A DNA stretch of 64,000 nucleotides from Streptomyces virus Karimac (lineage: Duplodnaviria > Heunggongvirae > Uroviricota > Caudoviricetes): the IMG/VR virus record IMGVR_UViG_2974575442_000001. One strand, written 5' to 3'. A model generated the notes under the pieces. That model did not search any database and was not told where the DNA came from. It worked only from the letters and a program-made list of their open reading frames with translations. Shown one piece after another: positions 13,664 to 64,000 of the stretch. The position numbers and the translations under genes are program-made. Within the stretch, counting starts at the first letter, position 1; every line of letters starts with the position of its first letter.

Positions 13664-14284
13664 ATGTCTACTACTACAGCAATGTTGCTCATCGTTGATC
13701 GATCTGGTAGCATGTCTAGTATCCAGATGGAAGCTGAGCAAGCGCTGAATGACTTCCTGACTAAGCAGAAGGCTGTTGACGGCCGATGTGGAGTCAAGGT
13801 TGTTCAGTTTGATGGTGAAGTAGAAGATCTATTTGGTCCAGTTGCTCTAGCTCAAGCTCCTGAGATTAAGATCGTTCCTCGTGGAATGACTGCACTACTT
13901 GACGCAATCGGCAAGTCTGTGACAGAATTCAGGGAGACGATGGATCATATGCCGGTGGATAAGCGACTCGTCGTTATTCTCACCGATGGTCTTGAGAATG
14001 TGTCTCAGGAGTGGAAGCTAGATGCAGTTAATAAGCTGATTAGCGAGTCAAGGGAGCTGGGCTACGAGTTCATCTTCCTTGCCGCTAACCAGGATGCAAT
14101 TGCAACTGGCGCTCAGATGGGTATTCCAACAGCTTCAAGTTTGACCTTTGCGGCTAGTCCGGCTGGTGTACGTGGCATGGGAATGACTATGGACATGTAC
14201 GTCACCAACTATCGTGAAGGTAAGGCAGCAGAATTCACTGATCAGGATCGGGCCACAGCGTCCGGTTTGACAGACGAAGACTGA
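13664..14284 (+). CDS. von Willebrand factor A domain protein
   Basis: MIDAS motif DRSGSMS near N-terminus; vWA-like length. Confidence 0.55.
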   Translation: MSTTTAMLLIVDRSGSMSSIQMEAEQALNDFLTKQKAVDGRCGVKVVQFDGEVEDLFGPVALAQAPEIKIVPRGMTALLDAIGKSVTEFRETMDHMPVDKRLVVILTDGLENVSQEWKLDAVNKLISESRELGYEFIFLAANQDAIATGAQMGIPTASSLTFAASPAGVRGMGMTMDMYVTNYREGKAAEFTDQDRATASGLTDED

Positions 14285-14304
14285 TCTGTTAGAGTAGTAA
14301 ATGT

Positions 14305-14368
14305 GGGTCGAAGGGCTCGGTCGGTTATCTTACATTGGAAATAGAAAGGTCATTAAATTGGCCACCCG
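14305..14368 (+). ncRNA. Y-RNA-like element (degenerate copy), 5' motif GGGTCGAAGGG...TCGGTTATCTTACA
   Basis: Aligns closely with the 22370 locus (GGGCCGAATGGAATCGGTTATCTTACAC...); terminal helix not convincingly found. Confidence 0.3.
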
Positions 14369-14392
14369 ACTCCCAACACTTATCCACATAAT

Positions 14393-15016: not shown

Positions 15017-15476
15017 CATTGGAGTAATATGGGATACTACACTTCGATATGAACTAGAGATCGTAAGAGACAGCGAAAGAGCCAAGGATCTCATAGACTC
15101 TGCTGATAGCGTTACAATCCCTGGAAGCTACGATCTGAATCTATCTAGACTGCTCAACGGCAACTATGATACGATGAAGTGGTACGACTGGGAAAGTGAC
15201 ATGGCAAGTCTGTCAAAGGATTGGCCAAACGTCCTCTTTGCTCTAAGCGGAGAAGGCGAGGAGCCCGGTGATCTTTGGAAGGCTTGGGTGCGAAACGGCA
15301 AGGTCATCAAGGTACAGGGTAAGATTGTTTACGATGTACCAGACATTGACAAAGTGCTTCCAGTCAACGATACTGTAGAAGAGAAGTACAGAGCACAGAA
15401 GAAGGCAGAGCTTCAAGCCACAATCAAGGATCTTGAGAATAGGCTAGCGGAGCTTAAGGGACTATCTAAGGATTAA
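14994..15476 (+). CDS. hypothetical protein (start uncertain)
   Basis: ORF with GTG start inside a hairpin; no in-frame ATG until late; coiled-coil C-terminus. Confidence 0.35.
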   Translation: MLNVPGFSIGVIWDTTLRYELEIVRDSERAKDLIDSADSVTIPGSYDLNLSRLLNGNYDTMKWYDWESDMASLSKDWPNVLFALSGEGEEPGDLWKAWVRNGKVIKVQGKIVYDVPDIDKVLPVNDTVEEKYRAQKKAELQATIKDLENRLAELKGLSKD

Positions 15477-15477
15477 G

Positions 15478-15645
15478 ATGGCACTCGTTGGAAACAGCAA
15501 TACTTGTTGGTTTCAGCGGTGTGGCAACAAGCCAATCCATCGAATTAGGTACTACAACAAAACTGTAATGGTTTGCAACAAGCACAAGAATCTCGATGGT
15601 GCAGGCTGTGCGCCTAGTCGCAGAAGGCCAAAAGGTTCAGCTTGA
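15478..15645 (+). CDS. small Cys-rich protein (55 aa)
   Basis: ATG directly after the previous stop; CxxxxC...C..H pattern; below ORF-track size cutoff. Confidence 0.25.
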   Translation: MALVGNSNTCWFQRCGNKPIHRIRYYNKTVMVCNKHKNLDGAGCAPSRRRPKGSA

Positions 15646-15701
15646 CAGACGCTACAGGGTCTGTTAGTATTAAGTACAACGCAGCAAGCAGTTGCTGCTA
15701 T

Positions 15702-15871: not shown

Positions 15872-15877
15872 CAATTT

Positions 15878-15943
15878 GGGTCGAATGGGTAACGGTTATC
15901 ACTCAATGGATAATAGGTTCGATTCCTATCGCTGGGTTCGCCC
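15878..15943 (+). ncRNA. Y-RNA-like ncRNA (best-supported copy)
   Basis: 5' GGGTCGAATGGGTAACGGTTATCACTCAATGG resembles human Y1/Y4 5' regions (GGTCCGA[AT]GGTAGTG[AG]GTTATC...); terminal helix GGG[T]CGAA/TTCGCCC with a single bulged nucleotide; internal T-arm-like hairpin taggttcgattccta. Confidence 0.55.
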
Positions 15944-16034
15944 GGTAGATACAAGTCATCTCAGATTGTGTGTGGTAGGATGACATTAAGGACTACACAC
16001 TCTCCGTTCCCGCCTTATACCTAAAGGACTTATT

Positions 16035-16556
16035 ATGACGGTACTTCTTAGGACTATCCACGGAAGCCATCTGTATGGCCTCGCTCACGCAAACAGCGAT
16101 AAGGACATTTACGAAGTAATTGCAACCAATCGCACGAAGCGTAAGCGAAACATTAAGCAAACCATTGCGAATGGTGTTGACAAGACGACGGTAGATATGT
16201 CAACATTTATGAAGATGGTTGATGATTGCGTACCTCAAGCACTTGAAGCGCTATGGACGCCGGTCGCTGAGATCGATAAGATCCACGAATTCCGGACACA
16301 ATATCGAGTGAATCGCGCCAAGATGAAAGATGTGTACGTACGAACTGCCCTTAACTTCGCTAAGGGTGATGGGGTAAAGCAGAAGAAGCACGCAGTGCGA
16401 TTGCTGTTGAACCTTGGTCACACTTTGGAGTTTGGAAAGTTCAATCCTCGATTGGGTGCAATGGATAAGATCATTATCAATGCATCTGTCGGAGACGCGG
16501 GAAAGTATGATGCCGTGTTCGACGCTCTAATTGATGAGGTCGGCCGGTGGATATAA
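16035..16556 (+). CDS. minimal nucleotidyltransferase (Pol-beta superfamily)
   Basis: HGSHLYGLAHANSDKD matches the hG[GS]x9-13Dh[DE] NTase signature; sits inside the tRNA cluster. Confidence 0.45.
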   Translation: MTVLLRTIHGSHLYGLAHANSDKDIYEVIATNRTKRKRNIKQTIANGVDKTTVDMSTFMKMVDDCVPQALEALWTPVAEIDKIHEFRTQYRVNRAKMKDVYVRTALNFAKGDGVKQKKHAVRLLLNLGHTLEFGKFNPRLGAMDKIIINASVGDAGKYDAVFDALIDEVGRWI

Positions 16557-21732: not shown

Positions 21733-22175
21733 CTTTCAGAATAAAACGAACGAGCGAGGTTAAATGACCAAGCGAGAAGCTGCTGTTGTTGCAGTGTTTA
21801 CAGGAATCCTCATTGGTGACTTCTCAGATATGCATGAGTATATCGAGGAGCTTGCTGGCCGTCCGGTTTGGACACATGAGCTGGCGTCAGAGGAATTTGC
21901 CGCTGAGCTAAAGGAACTAGCTCGTCCCGACTTCATGGAAATTGAGGTTGTGTAATGGCGGATAAGCTATGGGAAGTCTTTGGTAATTACACCAAGGACG
22001 GTCGTAAGCAAGATTTCAATAACGTCTACTCAGCAGCAAATGCTTCACGTGCTGAGTAGAAGGCCAAGGCTGATTACACTAGCTACATTGCTGCCAAGTA
22101 TGAGAAGGGTAGCTTCGGTAAGCTTGTGATCACTAAGGTTGTTGAATACAAGTAATGGTTGCCCTGCGGGGCTAG

Positions 22176-22246
22176 CCCGGCGTAGTGTAATGGAAACACG
22201 ATACGTTGTCAGCGTATTATCGAGGGTTCGATTCCCTTCGTCGGGA
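22176..22246 (+). tRNA. tRNA-Asp (anticodon GTC)
   Basis: Acceptor cccggcg/cgtcggg, D stem gtgt/acac, anticodon stem atacg/cgtat with loop ttGTCag, T-arm gagggttcgattccctt. Confidence 0.75.
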
Positions 22247-22320
22247 CTTTTGGGTCGAATGACTATCGGTTATCTGTCTATGAAACAGACTGAAACACGG
22301 TTCGAATCCGTGGATTGCTT
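22247..22320 (+). ncRNA. Y-RNA-like / tRNA-like hybrid element upstream of Ro60 gene
   Basis: 5' TTTTGGGTCGAATGACTATCGGTTATC (Y-RNA motif), then tRNA-like anticodon hairpin (gtct-atGAAac-agac) and perfect T-arm cacggttcgaatccgtg; no pairing acceptor. Confidence 0.4.
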
Positions 22321-22369
22321 TGGCGCTAGGTTTACGGTCGATGTCAACAACTTACCCATACAATTTTAT

Positions 22370-22437
22370 ATCGGGCCGAATGGAATCGGTTATCTTACAC
22401 TGCAAATATAAGGTCGATTCCTACCAACTTGCCCGAT
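22370..22437 (+). ncRNA. Y-RNA-like ncRNA with bulged-C terminal helix
   Basis: 5' ATCGGGC[C]GAA pairs with 3' TTGCCCGAT giving the canonical Y-RNA helix with a bulged C; interior GAATGGAATCGGTTATCTTACAC...aggtcgattcct T-arm-like hairpin; ~30 nt upstream of the gene preceding Ro60. Confidence 0.55.
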
Positions 22438-22465
22438 CTTTTCATTTCTACGAAAGGATCGAAGG

Positions 22466-22801
22466 TTGGACACCGAAGCGCGCATTGCACGTTTCAAGGA
22501 GCTATGGTCTTCTGGCGATAGCTATTGGGCAGAAGACATTGTTGACGAGATTAACGAGTCTCTTGCCGAAGATGAGTTCAAGCTAAGGCATGTAGATACC
22601 ATCGAAGAGGCAGAGTCCCGGTGGATGGATCACATGCTAGACATCGTTGAGATTGACGAAGGTGTCTTTGTTGGAGTACGCTGGGAAAGCGGCAAGACAG
22701 AGATGCAAGAAAACATGTACGAAGACGATTCTGTCTATCTGCTTGAGCGAGTAGAGAAGGTCGTCACCACAATTGAGTGGAACGACGTCAAGTCTCTCTG
22801 A
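22466..22801 (+). CDS. acidic hypothetical protein, upstream partner of Ro60 gene
   Basis: 111 aa, TTG start, highly acidic; immediately upstream of the TROVE gene. Confidence 0.4.
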   Translation: MDTEARIARFKELWSSGDSYWAEDIVDEINESLAEDEFKLRHVDTIEEAESRWMDHMLDIVEIDEGVFVGVRWESGKTEMQENMYEDDSVYLLERVEKVVTTIEWNDVKSL

Positions 22802-22837
22802 AAACTAAATGCCCTTAAAGGGCCGGAAAGGAAAGAA

Positions 22838-24466
22838 ATGTCCAACGCACTAACTAATGCCGCAAAGGCAACCAACAAGACTTCTCAGTCAATGAAGGCT
22901 AAGGCTGGACAGGTTAAGAACAACGCTGGTGGATTCGTCTTCCAGGTTTCTGATCAGTCTCGTCTTGAGCGCTTCCTGATTCTGGGAACTGATGGAGGAA
23001 CGTATTACGTCTCTGAGGTTAACCACACCCAGAGCAACGTAGAATTCCTCAATGAGTTCATTGCTCGTGACGAAGCCTCTGTACTGAACACAATCGTTGA
23101 TGTATCTGTCAATGGTCGTGCGTACAAGCAGAGTCCAGCCCTGTTCGCTCTAGCCTCTGTCATTGTCAACGGCAAGGATAAGCAGGCGGTCAAGGCTGTA
23201 TTCAACAAGGTCGTAAGGACTGCTACTCACCTCTACGAGGTGGTTAACTACCTTAACGAGCTTGGCGGATGGGGTCGCGCAAAGCGTGAAATCGTAGCTA
23301 GCTGGTTCGATAAGGATGCTGATAAGCTTGCTTATCAGGCAGTCAAGTATCGTTCCCGTAAGTTCGGTGGAAACACCTGGACGCTGCGAGACGTAATGCG
23401 AAAGGCTCACCCACAGAACGTTAACACGTCTGTTGCTGATTTTGTCCTAGGCAAGGAGCACGCGGCTGTAGATGACCTTCGGGTTATTGAGGGCTTCAAG
23501 CTTATGCAGAAGGCGGAGTCTGTAGAGAGTGTTCACGCAGTTCTGCGGGACTACGAGATGCTTTCTTGGGAGACAATTCCAACACAGTTCCTCACGGATG
23601 CTAGTGTTTGGAAGCGACTCTTCGCAAATGGTCAGCTTCGTGGTCAGGCTGCTGTTCGAAACATCACTCGCCTCGCGCGTATTGGTGCTTTCAAGGACAT
23701 GCAGTTTGCTGCGAGCTTCGCTGGTCAGCTAACGAATGAGGAACTGATTCGTCAGTCTCGACTGCACCCAATTAACTTCCTTAACGCTGCCGTTGTTTAC
23801 GCAGAAGGCCAGGTGGATCGAAAGAACTACTATGGCGGACGCGTAAAGAACTGGGAGACTGAGGCCGTTATTGTCGATGCAATCGATGAGGCGTTCCACA
23901 AGTCATTCAAGACCATTGAGCCAGCCGGTAAGAGGACGATGCTAGCCATCGACTGTTCCGGATCAATGAGTGCTATGGCTATGGGTCTCGACCTAAGCTG
24001 TGCACAGGTTGCTGGTGCTATGGCGATGACCATTGCGCGTACAGAGCCAGCTCACATTCTTCGCGGCTTCTCTAGCGTGGGGTACAACTGGCGTGACAGC
24101 GGTATGACCGAACTCAAGATTACTGGTCGCAGCTCTCTTGCTCAGGCAATGAGTGCAATGCGTGCGGTAAACTGGGGCGGTACAGACTGCTCACTGCCAA
24201 TGACGTGGGCTCTTGAGAACGGTGTGGAAGTTGACACCTTTGTCGTTATCACTGATAACGAGACATGGGCTGGCAAGATTCACCCATTCCAGGCTCTAAA
24301 GAAGTACCGTAAGGACACTGGCATTGATGCCCGACTTGCTGTTCTAGGAGTTGCTTCAACGCCATTTACTATCGCTGACCCAAGTGATAGCGGAATGATG
24401 GACTTCGTTGGCTTCGATAGCAACGCTCCACGTGTTCTGGCCGACTTCTCCGCAGGTCGAATCTGA
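22838..24466 (+). CDS. rsr: Ro60-like protein (TROVE domain plus C-terminal vWA/MIDAS); Rsr orthologue
   Basis: 542 aa; C-terminal MIDAS LAIDCSGSMS...GGTDCSLPM...VVITDNETW as in Ro60 vWA domain; N-terminal region of Ro60-like length and composition; Y-RNA-like genes nearby. Confidence 0.6.
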   Translation: MSNALTNAAKATNKTSQSMKAKAGQVKNNAGGFVFQVSDQSRLERFLILGTDGGTYYVSEVNHTQSNVEFLNEFIARDEASVLNTIVDVSVNGRAYKQSPALFALASVIVNGKDKQAVKAVFNKVVRTATHLYEVVNYLNELGGWGRAKREIVASWFDKDADKLAYQAVKYRSRKFGGNTWTLRDVMRKAHPQNVNTSVADFVLGKEHAAVDDLRVIEGFKLMQKAESVESVHAVLRDYEMLSWETIPTQFLTDASVWKRLFANGQLRGQAAVRNITRLARIGAFKDMQFAASFAGQLTNEELIRQSRLHPINFLNAAVVYAEGQVDRKNYYGGRVKNWETEAVIVDAIDEAFHKSFKTIEPAGKRTMLAIDCSGSMSAMAMGLDLSCAQVAGAMAMTIARTEPAHILRGFSSVGYNWRDSGMTELKITGRSSLAQAMSAMRAVNWGGTDCSLPMTWALENGVEVDTFVVITDNETWAGKIHPFQALKKYRKDTGIDARLAVLGVASTPFTIADPSDSGMMDFVGFDSNAPRVLADFSAGRI

Positions 24467-25418
24467 GCAAGGACCCCTCTCCTGAGGGGTTTTTTGCTAT
24501 ACTGGATAGATGATAAGTAAAGAAGAACGACAAGAACTAAAGCTTGCAAGATCAAAGGCAGAACTTGTAAGAACCGTAGCGAGCATGTTTCAGATGATTA
24601 TCTCTTCTGCCACTCTAGTGATTCTGGTGTATGTGAACTTCTTACGTTGACAAGCTGCTGCGGATGCGATAGCTTAGAGACATGAACGAGGACGAGCCAG
24701 GAGTAACACTCTCCAGCCTGTTCCGCATGATCTTTAGAAGGTCTACTAAGGAACGCCCGGCGATAGAAGAGTCTACTTGTGGTCATTGTAAGACTAAGTA
24801 CAATGTCAACGTAGGGCATATGTGTCCCTATATCAAAGAACTCTACTCCAAACTGGGGGAAAAGTGAGTTACGAAACTCGCACCTATCGATTCACCGGTT
24901 CAATGAAGCTTGCCGACGAGATCGTTATGCTTGCGATCAAGTACGGTCTTCGAGTGAGCAAGCGTACAAACAGCGGACTCATTAAGAAGTCTCATTTCCT
25001 TGAGATTTTTGGTGACACTCCTGCTTTTGGTCGGTTTGAATCAGCGAAGGACAGCACTCAGCGGAGGCTTAAGTGACATTTGAACAGAGCTTCAAGAAGG
25101 CATTCAAGGAAACTCGAAAGATTGGCATTACTGCTAAGATGCAGGTTCAGGAGTGTTGCCGAGGATGCATCAACAAGGAAAAGCTGGGCATGAATTCTGA
25201 TTCAGATCCATATGTTTACACATATGCTGGTCAGGGTTCACGACTTCGGTTTGATGGAGACTCAGTTGTTTATGCAGACAGCCGATCTCCTGTGCCTCAC
25301 ATCTATGTTTACCACGGAAATGGCGGCGGCGAGAAGTTCGCAGATGTTGCCAAGTCACTTGGTCTTGATGTAGAGTGGGATGGAAGCCAGTGGTCAGCTA
25401 TCGTAGTAAAGGTACCCA

Positions 25419-28354: not shown

Positions 28355-28408
28355 CTTTGAGAATACTCGCGATATTCTCAAATGCATATCAGGTCGCTCC
28401 TGATATGA

Positions 28409-28528
28409 GGAGTGTAGTTTAATTGGCAAAACCGCGAAATGCAATGTCGAAAGGGAAGTGCTGCTACGGCGGGTCTTACCTTAGTAGATATCAGAGTAGC
28501 AGTTGCGGGTTCGAGTCCCGTCACTCCG
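28409..28528 (+). ncRNA. unresolved ~120-nt tRNA-like RNA (acceptor-like stem ggagtg/cactcc plus T arm)
   Basis: T-arm gcgggttcgagtcccgt and terminal 6-bp stem enclose ~107 nt including 8-bp stem gctgctac/gtagcagt; too long for a tRNA and too short for tmRNA. Confidence 0.25.
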
Positions 28529-28668
28529 CTAGCCTGAGATGACGATCCGATGTAGGTCCCCTAGGGCTTGCGCAGGCCCGAAGGGCATTCGGGAAAGGTG
28601 CCTAGCTAGGTCCGTCTACCAATAAGGTGAGAGTTTTTCACGGCTTTTCTCATAATTAAACCGTGTTT

Positions 28669-28741: not shown

Positions 28742-28819
28742 AATGACTTATGGGAGTTGAGAGGCATCACATGCCCGACTGTAATCGGGTGATCGCAGGT
28801 TCGAATCCTGCCCCTATGG
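28742..28819 (+). tRNA. tRNA-like element without pairing acceptor stem
   Basis: Perfect T-arm gcaggttcgaatcctgc; extended hairpin atcac-atg-cccga-ctgtaa-tcggg-gtgat; 3' ccctatg has no 5' partner. Confidence 0.25.
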
Positions 28820-28826
28820 TCAGCAA

Positions 28827-36839: not shown

Positions 36840-36911
36840 GCATGTAAGCCAGGGATAAGCTAGGCGGGCCTGTAAAGCCCTACCTCGTTGGTTCGAATCC
36901 AACTACATGCA
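36840..36911 (+). tRNA. class-I tRNA with Tyr anticodon GTA (short variable arm)
   Basis: Perfect acceptor gcatgta/tacatgc, loop ctGTAaa on 4-bp stem, T-arm gttggttcgaatccaac. Confidence 0.45.
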
Positions 36912-39677: not shown

Positions 39678-39954
39678 GGGGATGCCTTGGTTTCGACTGG
39701 GGTGGATGACTTTAGTTTGCAGCCAGACATTGAGGAGATGTCTTTAAAAAGCCTCAAACCTATAAATGCCAACTCTAACGTTGCGTCTGCCTACGCCCTA
39801 GCGGCGTGATGGCCGGGCGGCAACTGCCTAGGAACAGAAAGTTGCGAATGTTTGGCCCGGTGGGGATAAACACATGCACTACCTGCTTGACACATGGCTG
39901 TGTATAGACTACTGTTTGAAGCATCAGGACGCGGGTTCGACTCCCGCCATCTCC
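39678..39954 (+). ncRNA. ssrA: tmRNA (SsrA), tag peptide (A)ANSNVASAYALAA
   Basis: 5' GGGGATGCCTTGGTTTCGACTGGGGT and 3' GGACGCGGGTTCGACTCCCGCCATCTCCAC align with E. coli ssrA ends; acceptor with G3-U70; tag ORF GCC AAC TCT AAC GTT GCG TCT GCC TAC GCC CTA GCG GCG TGA at 39767-39808. Confidence 0.8.
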
Positions 39955-39968
39955 ACTTAAGGATCAAC

Positions 39969-41464: not shown

Positions 41465-41534
41465 TGTCACATAGCTTAATGGGCAAAGCAGTCTTAGGCC
41501 AAAGACGATGTTGGTTCGAGTCCAACTGTGACAG
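41465..41534 (+). tRNA. tRNA with non-canonical (6- or 8-nt) anticodon loop
   Basis: Perfect acceptor tgtcaca/tgtgaca and T-arm gttggttcgagtccaac; anticodon hairpin gtctt-aggcca-aagac. Confidence 0.4.
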
Positions 41535-41559
41535 CAATATCAATTAGACTTCATAATCT

Positions 41560-43234: not shown

Positions 43235-44311
43235 ATGAAGTTCACCAAGATTTTCTCTCAGGAGCTTCTTGACGAGATGATCTCTGAGGGTTATGTCCGG
43301 GCGCAAACTCATCCGGTTCTGCCTCTCAAGATTCTCAACTACTCTGAGAAGACTCAGTTCGCCGGAAAGTGGAACGAGTGCACGCTTAACTGCCGTGGTA
43401 CGATCGTTGACTTTGACGGCAACCTGATTGCTCGTCCTTTCATGAAGTTCTTCAACCTTGGCGACTCTCAGTCTGCACAGCTTGACTGGGATGCACCTGT
43501 TGAGGTTACTGACAAGAAGGACGGCTCTATGGGAGTTCTTTACTCTTATGGAGGTGAGTGGGCTATTGCTACGCGAGGCTCATTCATGTCAGATCAGGCA
43601 ATTCACGCTACTCGTGTTCTGAACGAGCGCTACAGCCACATTCAGTTTGTCTCAGACTGCACATTCATCTTTGAGATCGTTTACCCTGACAACAGGATCG
43701 TTCTGGACTACGGTTCAATGGATGACCTGATTATGCTAGGGGCGGTTCACAAGGAGCATGGGTACGTCTGTGGTCCGCTGGAGGCGCAGGCAATTGTAAA
43801 TTGGGACGGGCCGGTGACGGAGGTCTTCAATTACAGGTCTTTGCGTGAGGCTGCTGTAGCAGATTACCGTAAGAACGCAGAGGGATTTGTCGTGCGTTCT
43901 GGTGCAAAGATGGTCAAGATCAAGCAGGCGGATTACGTTGAGCTGCACCGCATGATCTCAATGCTTTCTGAGCGCTCTGTGTGGTCTCAGCTTTCTCAGG
44001 GGTACTCTATCCTTGAGATCTGTGAGGCTCTGCCAGATGAGTTCCACCAGTTCGTCAAGGACGTGGGCGGGAAGCTTCTGGAGCAGTACCAGGAAATTGA
44101 GATTAAGGTTCGTGGCATCTTCCACAACCTTCTTTCTTCAATGGACGAGGGCTTCACACGTCGAGACTTCGCGATGGCTGCAAATCGGATTGATGGCTAC
44201 CGATCTCACATGTTTAACCTGCTTGACGGGAAGAGCATCGATGAGCTAATCTGGAAGCAGATCAAGCCGGAGGCCAAGCGAGAGGACGTACACCCTACCA
44301 ATGCGGGCTAA
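43235..44311 (+). CDS. ATP-dependent RNA ligase (Rnl-family)
   Basis: Nucleotidyltransferase motif I TDKKDGSMG (KxDG); size and downstream motifs as in phage RNA ligases; RBS aggagg. Confidence 0.65.
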   Translation: MKFTKIFSQELLDEMISEGYVRAQTHPVLPLKILNYSEKTQFAGKWNECTLNCRGTIVDFDGNLIARPFMKFFNLGDSQSAQLDWDAPVEVTDKKDGSMGVLYSYGGEWAIATRGSFMSDQAIHATRVLNERYSHIQFVSDCTFIFEIVYPDNRIVLDYGSMDDLIMLGAVHKEHGYVCGPLEAQAIVNWDGPVTEVFNYRSLREAAVADYRKNAEGFVVRSGAKMVKIKQADYVELHRMISMLSERSVWSQLSQGYSILEICEALPDEFHQFVKDVGGKLLEQYQEIEIKVRGIFHNLLSSMDEGFTRRDFAMAANRIDGYRSHMFNLLDGKSIDELIWKQIKPEAKREDVHPTNAG

Positions 44312-62824: not shown

Positions 62825-62850
62825 CCAAAAGCCCCCGCCGAAGCGGGGGC
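62825..62850 (-). terminator. rho-independent terminator (minus strand; palindromic hairpin)
   Basis: gcccccgc-cgaa-gcgggggc hairpin followed on minus strand by TTTTGG. Confidence 0.6.
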
Positions 62851-62857
62851 CGTTGAC

Positions 62858-63898
62858 TCAGGCAGCCAGACTCAGCACTGCCTTACGGATCTTGTTCTTC
62901 TCAGCGTTGATCACCGGGTCGAAACCACTCGCCGCAGCGAACAGATTGTCAACCTCACCCTTACGCGGCATCCGGTACCAGTCCAGACGCTCAGTCAGCG
63001 CGTTCAGCGCACCGGCCATCGTGCCAGCCAGAGACTGAGTGGTCTTGGGGCCGTCGCCCGTGTCGGTGAAGATTCCCATCAGCAGATCACGCTTGCCGTC
63101 CCACTTGACCTGAGAACCCTTGACGTTCTCAGTCGGACGGTCACCGTAGATCGTCTTGATCAGTTCATCGAACTGATTCTTCGTGCACTCCGTGCGGAAC
63201 AGTTCGTTCATCTCGCGCTCGAACTCATCCGCGTAGGCGAAGGTGATGTTCAGTGCCTCACGCGCGGCAGCCATGCGACCCTCGATGGTCTGAGTGTGGC
63301 GCATCTTGAACGTCTGCTTCACACCGTTACGGAGTGCGAAGTTCAGCGTGTTCTGACACACGACACGAACCGGAGTGACGCTCGCCTGCACCGCGAGAGA
63401 ACCGTCATGGGAGGTGTTGACCAGCAGATACATGTTGGTCACGTCGGAGTCACCGACCAGAACCTCTCGGCCGATACGCAGAGATCCGAAGACCTGCGTA
63501 CCATCCTTGATAGAACCGGCAGTCTCCCACGTTCCACCACCCGCAAGGATGCCGTCACCGAAGGCGAACAGCTCCTCATTCTGCACCACCTTATAGCGAG
63601 CGGCCACGATGCCAAGGGAGTCGTCCAGCCCATCGAACGGGTTGGTACGGATCACCTCGAACATGTCCTTAGACACGCGACCCTTACGCTCCAGAAGTTC
63701 CAGCCGCACGTTCCAGTTGGACAGGTGTGCGAGCCGAAGCATCTCGGAAGTGGTGAGTTCACCTTCGAAGACAGTTCCGAGGTTGTGCCACGCGGGCTCC
63801 AGACGAGAAGCGAACGCGACCTGACCACGGGAACCGATTTCGAGACCGTGCATTTTTGCTCCAATGATTGGCGGATTTACTACTAGCTTACCTTGCAC
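62858..63898 (-). CDS. putative structural (major capsid-like) protein
   Basis: 346 aa; composition and size like HK97-fold capsid proteins; assignment tentative. Confidence 0.3.
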   Translation of the reverse strand: MQGKLVVNPPIIGAKMHGLEIGSRGQVAFASRLEPAWHNLGTVFEGELTTSEMLRLAHLSNWNVRLELLERKGRVSKDMFEVIRTNPFDGLDDSLGIVAARYKVVQNEELFAFGDGILAGGGTWETAGSIKDGTQVFGSLRIGREVLVGDSDVTNMYLLVNTSHDGSLAVQASVTPVRVVCQNTLNFALRNGVKQTFKMRHTQTIEGRMAAAREALNITFAYADEFEREMNELFRTECTKNQFDELIKTIYGDRPTENVKGSQVKWDGKRDLLMGIFTDTGDGPKTTQSLAGTMAGALNALTERLDWYRMPRKGEVDNLFAAASGFDPVINAEKNKIRKAVLSLAA

Positions 63899-64000
63899 GG
63901 GGACTACTTGTCAAAGTAGTCAGAGAACACCCTGTGGAGTTGATCAAGCAACAGATCATCCAAGGCTTCGGGCTTTCGCCTTCCCCCTTGCTGATAGCTC

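What the first reader, a model, noticed from the sequence alone, without database searches (positions are those of the whole stretch)
22247..24466. Phage-encoded Ro60 (TROVE-vWA) protein with two Y-RNA-like genes immediately upstream
ORF 22838-24466 has the length and C-terminal MIDAS motif (AIDCSGSMS ... TDNETW) expected of Ro60/Rsr. Two short RNAs sit 0.4-0.6 kb upstream (22247-22320 and 22370-22437). Both begin with GGG(T/C)CGAATGG...ATCGGTTATC, which closely resembles the 5' Ro-binding region of human Y1/Y4 RNA (GGUCCGA(A/U)GGUAGUG(A/G)GUUAUC). The 22370 copy closes with helix ATCGGGC[C]GAA / TTGCCCGAT carrying the hallmark bulged C. Each also holds a T-arm-like hairpin, as bacterial YrlA-type Y RNAs do. 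Ro60 plus Y RNA is known in bacteria and a few mycobacteriophages. A multi-copy Y-RNA family embedded in a tRNA island is unusual and may tether host exoribonucleases.
Basis: partly seen in the sequence, partly recalled or inferred. Interest (0 to 1): 0.85.

Follow-up and report, generated by a model that had tools for sequence, protein, structure and literature searches.

The report
Phage Ro60 with four Y RNAs
A Streptomyces phage encodes a Ro60 RNA-binding ring protein and four unannotated small Y-type partner RNAs scattered among its tRNA genes; this is a new example of a known bacterial and phage RNA quality-control system.

Summary
The window is Streptomyces phage Karimac. ORF 22838-24466 is a genuine Ro60/Rsr orthologue (TROVE, Ro60-type vWA, MIDAS) and GenBank already annotates it as one. 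Both upstream RNAs are real Y-RNA-family genes, but two details need correcting. The first spans 22248-22361, not 22247-22320. Only the first carries a T arm.

A covariance model built from short phage homologues finds exactly four copies in the whole 132-kb genome, all on the + strand. They are A 14301-14389, B 15874-16026, Y1 and Y2. The Ro-binding stem, with its invariant bulged C, covaries strongly: 88% of cells paired against 67% in shuffles, and 14 of 17 pairs show compensatory changes.

The same model hits 108 sites upstream of rsr in 80 bacterial loci, and 108 sites upstream of Ro60 in 47 of 60 viral contigs. Multi-copy Y RNAs next to Ro60 are therefore the norm.

Three of the four copies abut tRNAs. 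A starts at a conserved promoter. B carries a covarying pseudoknot and sits before an RlaP-like RNA-repair nucleotidyltransferase.

None reaches an Rfam threshold, and none is annotated. Expression and Ro60 binding are untested.

Verdict: new members of a known kind, of moderate interest.

The parts
14267..14295 (+). Sigma-70-like promoter (TTGACA, 17 nt, TG-n-TAGAGT) ending 5 nt before Y-like RNA A
   Evidence: scores it 10 of 12 with an extended -10. The same TTGACA-N17-TGnTAAAGT-agtaa-AUGUGGG arrangement is conserved in 9 of 9 related phages.
14301..14389 (+). Y-like RNA A, a short YrlB-like form. Stem I is 14302-14308 / 14382-14388, the bulged C is 14309, UUAUC is 14325-14329 and an internal hairpin is 14348-14363. 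It ends 3 nt before tRNA-Gly (14393).
   Evidence: R1 gives 63.3 bits (this sequence was in the seed). Eight orthologues keep stem I and stem II, with compensatory changes in stem II. It abuts the tRNA.
15642..15670 (+). Promoter-like site ahead of tRNA-Pro, tRNA-Pro, RNA B and gp109
   Evidence: TTGACA, 17 nt, TAGTAT, preceded by TG.
15874..16026 (+). Y-like RNA B, a long form. Stem I is 15875-15881 / 16019-16025, the bulged C is 15882, and stem II is 15887-15895 / 16004-16011. The hairpin after UUAUC is 15897-15912, the T arm 15913-15929 and the AS-like hairpin 15931-15946. An H-type pseudoknot pairs 15955-15961 with 15978-84, and 15968-15976 with 15992-16000. B starts 1 nt after tRNA-Pro, and its 3' strand overlaps the Shine-Dalgarno sequence of gp109.
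   Evidence: R1 gives 22.1 bits, E = 0.002, and B was not in the seed. It is conserved and unannotated in 83 phage records. In 8 orthologues 96% of cells pair, against 38-53% when partners are slid. Compensatory changes occur in the T arm, both pseudoknot helices and stem II. The AS hairpin covaries.
16035..16556 (+). gp109, a 173-aa nucleotidyltransferase of the RlaP (RNA-repair Pol-beta) family, immediately downstream of B
   Evidence: Pfam PF10127 RlaP scores 24.3 bits against a cut-off of 23, E = 2.9e-5, on the N-terminal half only. PHROG 388 nucleotidyltransferase scores 1.8e-21.
22176..22247 (+). tRNA-Asp(GTC), which directly precedes Y1 and has no encoded CCA
   Evidence: The sequence reads ...CGUCGGGA CUUUUGGGUCGAA.
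22248..22361 (+). Y-like RNA Y1, with a reduced YrlA-like tRNA module. Stem I is 22250-22255 / 22354-22358, the bulged C is 22256, and stem II is 22261-22269 / 22336-22345. UUAUC is 22270-22274, the V hairpin 22273-22289 and the T arm 22296-22312.
   Evidence: R1 gives 38.2 bits, E = 1e-7, and Y1 was not in the seed. RNAalifold on 8 orthologues recovers stem I, stem II, the T arm (3 pairs with compensatory changes) and a post-T hairpin.
22369..22438 (+). Y-like RNA Y2, a short YrlB-like form. Stem I is 22370-22376 / 22431-22437, the bulged C is 22377, G22378 and A22379 pair with U22430 and U22429, and stem II is 22382-22389 / 22413-22421. A U-rich tail CUUUUCAUUUCU follows.
   Evidence: R1 gives 68 bits (in the seed). 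The fold z-score is -2.6. Rfam sbRNA gives 33.9 bits and Y_RNA 19.2 bits, the latter aligned end to end.
22466..22801 (+). gp129, a 111-aa protein of unknown function lying between the Y RNAs and Ro60
   Evidence: No Pfam hit. PHROG 13073, unknown function. Homologues occur only in Boydwoodruffvirinae phages and in none of the 80 bacterial rsr loci.
22838..24466 (+). Ro60/Rsr orthologue (gp130), with TROVE and Ro60-type vWA domains and a MIDAS motif
   Evidence: GenBank annotates it as 'Ro-like RNA binding protein'.
24476..24495 (+). Intrinsic-terminator-like hairpin plus T6, 10 nt after the Ro60 stop codon. It is the probable end of the tRNA-Asp/Y1/Y2/gp129/Ro60 transcription unit.
43235..44311 (+). 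gp204, a T4 Rnl1-type RNA ligase. It is listed as RNA-repair context and is not shown to act with Ro60.
   Evidence: Pfam RNA_lig_T4_1 scores 2.7e-14. PHROG 562 scores 7e-82.

Best explanation
Karimac carries a Ro60-Y RNA ribonucleoprotein system: one Ro60/Rsr gene and four Y-RNA-family genes (A, B, Y1, Y2).

Shown: all four RNAs share one covarying module. It consists of a closing stem, an invariant bulged C followed by GAA, a second stem, then UUAUC. The same module sits upstream of rsr in bacteria and upstream of Ro60 in other phages.

Inferred biogenesis: the RNAs are transcribed within tRNA polycistrons. A begins at a conserved promoter. Y1 and Y2 lie in a tRNA-Asp/Y1/Y2/gp129/Ro60 unit that ends at a terminator. 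tRNA-processing enzymes cut them free: RNase P at the 5' end of the downstream tRNA, and RNase Z or equivalent 3' trimming of the upstream tRNA.

Inferred function: Ro60 binds the bulged-C stem on its outer surface. Each RNA's variable module recruits a partner. The modules are a T-arm tRNA mimic in Y1, a T arm plus pseudoknot in B, and simple hairpins in A and Y2. The partner is most probably host PNPase, as in the D. radiodurans, Salmonella and Thermus phage phiLo complexes. The resulting machine would clear structured, misfolded or cleaved RNAs during infection. It would act alongside the phage's own tRNA set, tmRNA, RlaP-like nucleotidyltransferase and Rnl1-type ligase.

The stated confidence applies to the identity of the system (Y-RNA-family genes partnering the phage Ro60). 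I put the PNPase-tethering step alone at about 0.4.
For: Protein. TROVE and vWA_Ro60 hits. Rsr 2nvo at E = 4e-99 over the full length. MIDAS residues D372, S374, S376, T449 and D473, and the KYxxR motif with a downstream H, are invariant across 8 phage Ro60s.

RNA module.
- 12 seed sequences: 89.7% of cells paired, against 68.8% shuffled and 33-45% slid.
- 42 phage hits: 88.1% against 66.9%, with 174 compensatory cells against 48.5, and 14 of 17 pairs changed on both sides.
- C9 is invariant, and G10 pairs with U or C in 42 of 42.

Specificity. There are four hits in the window and none in the remaining 68 kb of the genome, with filters off.

Association with Ro60.
- Bacteria: 108 of 109 hits are on the rsr strand, nearly all of them within about 700 nt upstream.
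- Viral contigs: 108 of 108 hits are upstream of Ro60 on the same strand, in 47 of 60 contigs.
- R1 hits enclose Rfam YrlA matches in phage ET08, a published YrlA host, and in Boopy.

Biogenesis.
- 19 of 44 and 39 of 108 phage copies abut a tRNA or tmRNA within 10 nt or less.
- The promoter before A is conserved in 9 of 9 phages.
- A terminator-like site follows Ro60.

Function by analogy. Rsr-Y RNA-PNPase complexes are described in PMC4201824. phiLo Ro60-Yrl-PNPase complexes are described in PMC12135203.

RNA-repair neighbours. gp109 matches RlaP and gp204 matches Rnl1.
Against: There are no expression, end-mapping or binding data for any of the four RNAs.

None reaches an Rfam gathering score. 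YrlA gives no hit at all on Karimac. Y_RNA scores 19.2 and sbRNA 33.9, both against 38.

Y1 is no more stable than shuffled sequence (z = -0.73), and its stem I is only 5+2 bp.

A and B lie 8.4 and 6.8 kb from Ro60. That is further than any copy seen in 60 viral contigs, where the maximum was 5.1 kb.

Y1 lacks the D arm that defines YrlA. Its V hairpin is thermodynamically marginal.

B overlaps the ribosome-binding site of gp109, so it could act in cis.

The phage encodes no PNPase, and the partner is unknown. E-values from R1 are rough because calibration was short.
Confidence: 0.75

Rival explanations
1. The RNP serves tRNA repair or quality control rather than bulk decay. Ro60 with tRNA-like Y RNAs would capture damaged or misprocessed tRNAs, for example those cut by host anticodon nucleases. 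It would hand them to the phage RlaP-like nucleotidyltransferase and Rnl1 ligase, or control access to them.
For: B sits directly upstream of an RlaP-family gene in 83 phage records. An Rnl1-type ligase, 45 tRNAs and a tmRNA lie in the same island. In Salmonella, rsr and yrlBA are co-operonic with rtcBA, and that operon responds to damaged tRNAs (PMC7790460). RlaP restores damaged tRNA 3' ends (PMC12776372). Comparative genomics places TROVE proteins in RNA-repair systems of jumbo phages (PMC7824862).
Against: The RlaP match is marginal and covers only the N-terminal half (24.3 bits against 23). gp109 has no PDB relative by sequence. Naboo keeps the RlaP gene without B. Rnl1 lies 19 kb from Ro60. 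No polynucleotide kinase/phosphatase was looked for. No biochemical link between Ro60 and RlaP or Rnl1 is known.
Confidence: 0.25
2. B, and possibly A, acts mainly in cis. B would be a structured 5' leader that controls translation or stability of the gp109 mRNA. A would be a leader or processing element of the tRNA-Gly/Gln/Trp transcript. Neither would be a free, trans-acting Y RNA.
For: The 3' strand of B's stem I (ACCUAAA, 16019-16025) overlaps the AAAGGA Shine-Dalgarno sequence at 16023-16028, 7 nt before the gp109 AUG. B always lies between tRNA-Pro and gp109 in BE1 and BE2 phages. A lies at the very 5' end of a promoter-defined transcript.
Against: Both carry the full Ro-binding module, with the invariant bulged C and GNCGAA, and A scores 63 bits. 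Naboo expresses gp109 behind a different sequence. Related phages carry the same module in many contexts unconnected with gp109. The two roles are not mutually exclusive.
Confidence: 0.12
3. The elements are decayed tRNA genes or generic spacer hairpins of tRNA operons, with no relation to Ro60.
For: They lie in a tRNA island. Two carry T arms. In other phage records, annotators have called overlapping sequence tRNA: Mildred21 tRNA-Ser, Boopy tRNA-Ile and tRNA-Leu, and Trina tRNA-OTHER.
Against: The conserved part is not tRNA-like. It is the bulged-C stem with GNCGAA and UUAUC. It covaries. It is found on the same strand upstream of rsr/Ro60 in 80 bacterial and 47 viral loci, many of them without tRNAs. 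ARAGORN and the Rfam tRNA model do not call any of the four Karimac loci.
Confidence: 0.04

Closest known systems
Bacterial Rsr with YrlA/YrlB (S. Typhimurium, M. smegmatis; Chen et al. 2014, PMC4201824)
   Same: Ro60 orthologue with two or more Y RNAs encoded upstream on the same strand. GNCGAAN0-1G lies near the 5' end, and YUAY begins the variable module. One RNA carries a T arm and one is a simple long hairpin. In M. smegmatis both RNAs are cut from one precursor, and RNase P acts on YrlA. The phage-derived model hits the equivalent position in 80 bacterial rsr loci.
   Different: Karimac Y1 has no D arm and only a weak AS stem. It does not match Rfam YrlA even at E <= 10. Both strands of the Ro-binding helix are conserved, as in Deinococcus and animals, whereas PMC4201824 reports that only the 5' strand is recognisable in Salmonella and M. 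smegmatis. Two of the four copies lie 6.8-8.4 kb from the protein gene, among tRNAs.
Mycobacteriophage (Bxz1/ET08-type) Ro60 with YrlA-like RNAs
   Same: A large actinophage with a tRNA island, a tmRNA and a Ro60 that is 40% identical. Several Y-like RNAs lie just upstream: three R1 hits in ET08, one of which encloses an Rfam YrlA match.
   Different: The ET08 copies are all within about 450 nt of Ro60, and one has a YrlA-type tRNA domain. The Karimac copies are dispersed, have reduced tRNA mimicry, and include a form with a pseudoknot.
Thermus phage phiLo phiRo60 with Yrl1/Yrl2 (PMC12135203)
   Same: A phage Ro60 with two Y-like RNAs identified upstream through the CGAA motif and a stem-bulge-stem fold. 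Binding to Ro60 and ternary complexes with host PNPase were shown in vitro. This is the best experimental precedent for the mechanism proposed here.
   Different: Different phage lineage and host. phiLo has two RNAs next to the gene, and no embedding in a tRNA island has been described.
D. radiodurans Rsr-Yrn1-PNPase (RYPER)
   Same: The Y RNA has a bulged helix conserved on both strands plus a T-arm-like element, and it acts as gate and tether. The Karimac protein's closest solved relative is this Rsr (2nvo, E = 4e-99).
   Different: It is a cellular, stress-induced system. Whether Karimac Ro60 engages Streptomyces PNPase is unknown.
Animal Y RNAs and nematode stem-bulge RNAs (Rfam RF00019, RF01656)
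   Same: Y2 aligns end to end with both models. Shared features are the lower stem, the bulged C in GNCCGA, GGUUAU, ACUUG on the 3' strand and a terminal U tract.
   Different: Both scores fall below the gathering threshold (19.2 and 33.9 against 38). Transcription and 3'-end formation differ, and the loop modules are unrelated.

Membership tests
Ro60/Rsr (TROVE-vWA ring protein) | TROVE domain above the Pfam gathering score | tested here: met
   PF05731 scores 120.4 bits against a cut-off of 23, E = 1.5e-34, over residues 26-330.
Ro60/Rsr (TROVE-vWA ring protein) | C-terminal Ro60-type vWA domain with MIDAS residues (DxSxS, T, D) | tested here: met
   PF25045 scores 200.7 bits. D372-C-S374-G-S376, T449 and D473 are invariant in 8 phage Ro60s.
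Ro60/Rsr (TROVE-vWA ring protein) | Full-length collinearity with solved Ro60/Rsr structures | tested here: met
   2nvo at E = 4e-99 (query 16-541 against chain 17-533). Human and Xenopus Ro60 at E = 5e-84 and 6e-83.
Ro60/Rsr (TROVE-vWA ring protein) | Ring fold that binds Y RNA on its outer surface and RNA 3' ends in its central hole | not tested
KYxxR and the downstream H align with the animal protein. Their role in RNA binding is recalled from the literature, not tested.
Y RNA (Ro60-associated ncRNA class) | Physically bound and stabilised by Ro60 | not testable with these tools
   This needs RIP, gel-shift assays, or Northern blots in a Ro60 deletion.
Y RNA (Ro60-associated ncRNA class) | 5' and 3' ends form a long stem containing a conserved helix with a bulged C | tested here: met
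   All four Karimac RNAs have it. Covariation: 88-90% of cells paired against 67-69% shuffled. The C is invariant, and the next G is paired in 42 of 42.
Y RNA (Ro60-associated ncRNA class) | GNCGAAN0-1G motif near the 5' end (bacterial Y RNAs, PMC4201824) | tested here: met
   GUCGAAGG at 14307, GUCGAAUG at 15880, GUCGAAUG at 22254 and GCCGAAUG at 22375.
Y RNA (Ro60-associated ncRNA class) | Encoded close to Ro60 and on the same strand | tested here: inconclusive
   Y1 and Y2 lie 0.4-0.6 kb upstream on the same strand, so they meet the criterion. A and B are on the same strand but 8.4 and 6.8 kb upstream. That exceeds the maximum of 5.1 kb seen in 60 viral contigs.
Y RNA (Ro60-associated ncRNA class) | Homology to the RNAs found upstream of bacterial rsr | tested here: met
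   The phage-only model R1 gives 109 hits in 80 bacterial rsr loci. Of these, 108 are on the rsr strand, nearly all just upstream.
YrlA (Rfam RF02553; tRNA-mimic Y RNA) | Score at or above the Rfam gathering threshold (69 bits) | tested here: not met
   No YrlA match on Y1 or Y2 at E <= 10, or on A or B at E <= 1. Controls: Boopy 52.1 bits and ET08 37.4 bits.
YrlA (Rfam RF02553; tRNA-mimic Y RNA) | Conserved T arm | tested here: met
   Y1: CACGG-UUCGAAU-CCGUG, with 3 pairs compensated among 8 orthologues. B: AUAGG-UUCGAUU-CCUAU, with A-U changed to C-G in 2 of 8. A and Y2 have none.
YrlA (Rfam RF02553; tRNA-mimic Y RNA) | Conserved D arm 3' of the AS stem-loop | tested here: not met
   In Y1 the post-T hairpin runs straight into the 3' strand of stem II. 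In B that position holds a pseudoknot, and the only D-like pairing (AGAU/AUCU) is not conserved. Microbacterium phage Cece copy 3 shows the full V-T-AS-D order.
YrlA (Rfam RF02553; tRNA-mimic Y RNA) | YUAY opening the variable module | tested here: met
   UUAUC follows stem II in all four RNAs. UUA is invariant in the 12-sequence seed.
Animal Y RNA / nematode sbRNA (RF00019, RF01656) | Score at or above the gathering threshold (38 bits each) | tested here: not met
   Y2 scores 19.2 bits on Y_RNA and 33.9 bits on sbRNA. Both alignments are end to end and keep the bulged-C helix.
RlaP (PF10127) for the neighbour gene gp109 | Pfam score above the gathering threshold | tested here: met
   24.3 bits against 23, E = 2.9e-5, matching profile positions 19-120 of 249 only. 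The match is marginal, and no solved relative was found by sequence.

The most novel reading that the evidence does not exclude
Actinophage Y RNAs would be a diversified gene family woven into tRNA polycistrons. Examples are tmRNA-Y-tRNA-Y-tRNA-Y-tRNA in Gordonia phage Boopy, and promoter-Y-tRNA and tRNA-Y in Karimac. Their ends would be made by RNase P and RNase Z, so that Y RNA output is tied to tRNA output. Paralogues with different effector modules (T-arm mimic, pseudoknot, plain hairpin) would direct one phage Ro60 to different partners. B would link Ro60 to a phage tRNA-repair pathway (RlaP-like nucleotidyltransferase plus Rnl1 ligase) that counters host anticodon nucleases.
Probability: 0.25. 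Interest if true: 0.7.

Novelty: new member of a known kind. Interest (0 to 1): 0.45.

Why it matters
The finding adds a large, well-sampled phage group to the systems in which Ro60-Y RNA biology can be studied. That group is the Stanwilliamsviridae, with more than 100 sequenced Streptomyces phages.

It supplies a covariance model that recovers Y-like RNAs which Rfam thresholds and genome annotation miss, and which annotators sometimes call tRNAs.

It suggests a concrete biogenesis route through tRNA-processing enzymes. It also suggests a testable link between Ro60 and phage RNA-repair genes.

It does not change the known picture that phages can carry Ro60 with Y RNAs.

Tried and rejected
- Rfam at gathering thresholds gave only tRNAs and the tmRNA over the whole window.
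- Rfam YrlA gave nothing on the Karimac loci even at lax E-values.
Covariation was needed.
- A D arm in B (AGAU/AUCU) was considered and rejected because it is not conserved. The overlapping pseudoknot helix is conserved and compensated.
- B as an obligatory leader of gp109 was weakened, because Naboo has gp109 without B.
- gp129 was explored as a possible conserved partner. It has no Pfam hit, belongs to a PHROG of unknown function, and is absent from the bacterial rsr loci and from the phage loci outside Boydwoodruffvirinae that were held at that point.
- A PDB sequence search for gp109 found nothing.
- The supplementary tables of Chen et al. 2014 (the phage list) and the 2020 Annual Review were not available. 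I therefore could not check whether any Streptomyces phage Y RNA was already listed. Full-text searches found no paper linking Streptomyces phages to Y RNAs.
- One script mis-read multi-record files and was rerun.
- The GNCGAA-like motif in the Ro60 5' leader was not pursued, because it overlaps a Shine-Dalgarno-like GAAAGG.


Full report
Identity of the window. The 3-kb stretch around the finding is 100% identical to Streptomyces phage Karimac (MH590599; window position = record position minus 58074). Karimac is a 131.9-kb member of the Stanwilliamsviridae. The window covers its tRNA island, with 44 tRNA calls and a tmRNA. In GenBank the ORF is already gp130, 'Ro-like RNA binding protein'. 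The 218 nt between tRNA-Asp and gp129 carry no annotation.

The protein. ORF 22838-24466 (542 aa) matches Pfam TROVE (120 bits) and the Ro60-specific vWA domain (201 bits). It aligns over its full length with D. radiodurans Rsr (2nvo, E = 4e-99) and with human and Xenopus Ro60.

The second, 22369-22438, is as described. It has a 7-bp closing stem, a bulged C, G-U and A-U pairs, a second 8-bp stem and then UUAUC. It folds better than shuffles (z = -2.6). The first was cut short. The partner of its 5' strand, UUGGGU[C]GA, is UUACCCA at 22352-22358, so the gene is 22248-22361. Only the first RNA has a T arm (22296-22312). The GGUCGAUUCC of the second RNA is simply the 3' strand of its stem II.

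More copies. Scanning for GNCGAAN0-1G followed by GGUUAUC revealed two further sites. I built a covariance model (R1) from 12 short homologues. They came from Streptomyces, Gordonia, Mycobacterium and Microbacterium phages. With filters off, the window gives exactly four hits, all on the + strand:
- Y2: 68 bits.
- A, 14301-14389: 63 bits.
- Y1: 38 bits, E = 1e-7, not in the seed.
- B, 15874-16026: 22 bits, E = 0.002, not in the seed.
The next best hit scores 11 bits. The remaining 68 kb of the genome has none.

Is the structure real? On the seed alignment, 89.7% of cells pair, against 68.8% in shuffles and 33-45% when partners are slid. On 42 hits from 16 phage loci, 88.1% pair against 66.9%. 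There are 174 compensatory cells against 48.5 expected, and 14 of 17 pairs change on both sides. The bulged C is invariant. The G after it pairs with U or C in 42 of 42. The following A-U pair holds in only 9 of 42. Alignments within each orthologue group agree. In Y1, stems I and II and the T arm show compensatory changes. In A, stem II covaries.

B folds into six parts:
- stem I;
- stem II;
- an invariant hairpin after UUAUC;
- a T arm;
- a strongly covarying AS-like hairpin;
- an H-type pseudoknot.
Both pseudoknot helices carry compensatory changes. B pairs at 96%, against 38-53% when slid. B is conserved and unannotated in 83 phage records.

Family membership. R1 was built from phage sequences only. 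It gives 109 hits in 80 bacterial rsr loci, and 108 of them lie on the rsr strand. Nearly all are within about 700 nt upstream, with one to five per locus. This is where the experimentally validated YrlA and YrlB of M. smegmatis and Salmonella lie (PMC4201824). In phages ET08 and Boopy, R1 hits enclose sub-threshold Rfam YrlA matches. ET08 is one of the published YrlA hosts.

The Karimac RNAs therefore belong to the bacterial Y RNA family in the broad sense. They do not qualify as Rfam YrlA. No match appears even at lax E-values. Y1 has no D arm and only a 3-bp AS stem. In B a pseudoknot replaces the D arm.

Y2 aligns end to end with the nematode sbRNA model (33.9 bits) and the vertebrate Y_RNA model (19.2 bits). 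Both have a gathering score of 38. The alignment includes the bulged C, GGUUAU, ACUUG and the U tail.

How unusual is multi-copy? It is not unusual. In 60 Ro60-encoding viral contigs from IMG/VR, 47 have one to four R1 hits at E <= 1e-3. All 108 hits lie upstream of Ro60 on the same strand. The median distance is 695 nt and the maximum 5.1 kb. There are none in the 10 kb downstream. Rhodococcus phage Trina has eight or more copies and Gordonia phage Boopy seven. What sets Karimac apart is that A and B lie 8.4 and 6.8 kb from Ro60.

Context and likely biogenesis. Three of the four Karimac RNAs touch a tRNA. A ends 3 nt before tRNA-Gly, B starts 1 nt after tRNA-Pro, and Y1 starts right after tRNA-Asp. 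Y2 follows Y1 by 7 nt. Across GenBank phages, 19 of 44 copies abut a tRNA or tmRNA within 6 nt. In viral contigs, 39 of 108 do so within 10 nt. Boopy shows tmRNA-Y-tRNA-Y-tRNA-Y-tRNA-Y-tRNA with spacers of 1-6 nt.

A consensus-like extended -10 promoter ends 5 nt before A in all nine phages examined, so A probably begins a primary transcript. A terminator-like hairpin follows the Ro60 stop codon. I infer co-transcription with tRNAs and release by RNase P and tRNA 3'-end enzymes. This is consistent with RNase P acting on M. smegmatis YrlA (PMC4201824). None of it is shown.

Neighbours. gp109, immediately after B, matches the RlaP family of RNA-repair nucleotidyltransferases, but only marginally (24.3 bits against 23). 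RlaP enzymes add one or two nucleotides to damaged RNA 3' ends and help to restore cleaved tRNAs (PMC12776372). gp204 is a T4 Rnl1-type RNA ligase. The 3' strand of B's stem I overlaps the gp109 Shine-Dalgarno sequence, which allows a cis role. Against that, Naboo keeps gp109 without B. gp129, between Y2 and Ro60, is specific to this lineage and of unknown function.

Mechanism. The best-supported reading is a Ro60-Y RNA RNP. Ro60 binds the bulged-C stem. The variable modules act as gate and tether, most probably to host PNPase. That is the arrangement in D. radiodurans and Salmonella (PMC4201824), and it was reconstituted for Thermus phage phiLo (PMC12135203). The complex would clear structured or damaged RNA during infection. 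The main rival is a role in tRNA repair or quality control together with RlaP and Rnl1. A minor rival is cis regulation by B. Binding, expression and partners are all untested.

Verdict. Phage Ro60 with upstream Y RNAs has been known since 2014 and has been biochemically characterised. These are therefore new, previously unannotated members of a known kind, with some variant features: a reduced tRNA mimic, a pseudoknot form, and dispersal within tRNA polycistrons. Interest is moderate.

Noticed in passing
L008 1084-1155 (Mildred21); L014 4498-4565 and 4684-4772 (Boopy); L013 1631-1839 (Trina): GenBank tRNA features overlap Y-like RNAs found by model R1: tRNA-Ser(tga), tRNA-Ile, tRNA-Leu and a pseudo 'tRNA-OTHER'. 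They are probably mis-called tRNA-like modules. ARAGORN here does not reproduce the Mildred21, Boopy tRNA-Ile or Trina calls.
   Followed up: partly
window 22811-22837; L007 1943; L010 1902; L011 1921; L017 1925: A GNCGAA-like motif sits within about 25 nt upstream of the Ro60 start codon in several distant phages: GGGUCGAAAG, GGGCCGAAAGG and GAGCCGAAUGG. Karimac has a hairpin at 22811-22823 followed by GGGCCGGAAAGG. It could be an autoregulatory Ro60 site or simply part of the Shine-Dalgarno sequence.
   Followed up: no
window 28748-28821 and 41465-41535: ARAGORN calls two tRNAs of undetermined identity with two-base 'anticodons' (gt, gc). GenBank lists the second as tRNA-OTHER.
   Followed up: no
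window 28408-28529 and 36840-36911: The Rfam tRNA model gives weak hits (33.1 and 35.3 bits) that ARAGORN does not call. The first is 122 nt long, which suggests an insertion or intron-like interruption.
   Followed up: no
L018 7175-7321 (NootNoot): BE2-type phages carry an extra Y-like RNA directly after tRNA-Ile (32 bits). It has no counterpart in Karimac, where a small ORF follows tRNA-Ile.
   Followed up: partly
L014 3947-5065 (Gordonia phage Boopy): There is a strict alternation tmRNA-Y-tRNA(Arg)-Y-tRNA(Gln)-Y-tRNA(Ile)-Y-tRNA(Met), with spacers of 1-6 nt. Three more Y-like RNAs lie upstream of Ro60.
   Followed up: partly
window 14267-14295, 15346-15374 and 15642-15670: Near-consensus TTGACA-N17 promoters recur in front of tRNA clusters. 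There are seven promoter-like sites in 2.3 kb, against 2.7 expected.
   Followed up: partly
window about 62850-64000; L108 and L110: Genes 1-27 of Karimac are repeated as genes 261-285, and R1 background hits are identical in L108 and L110. This indicates a long direct terminal repeat of about 11 kb whose right copy begins near the end of the window.
   Followed up: no
window 39678-39958: The phage encodes a tmRNA (94.6 bits, tag ANSNVASAYALAA) in the same island as the tRNAs, the Y RNAs and Ro60.
   Followed up: no
window 21764-21955: A small ORF two genes upstream of Y1 matches Pfam DUF7736 (76.8 bits).
   Followed up: no
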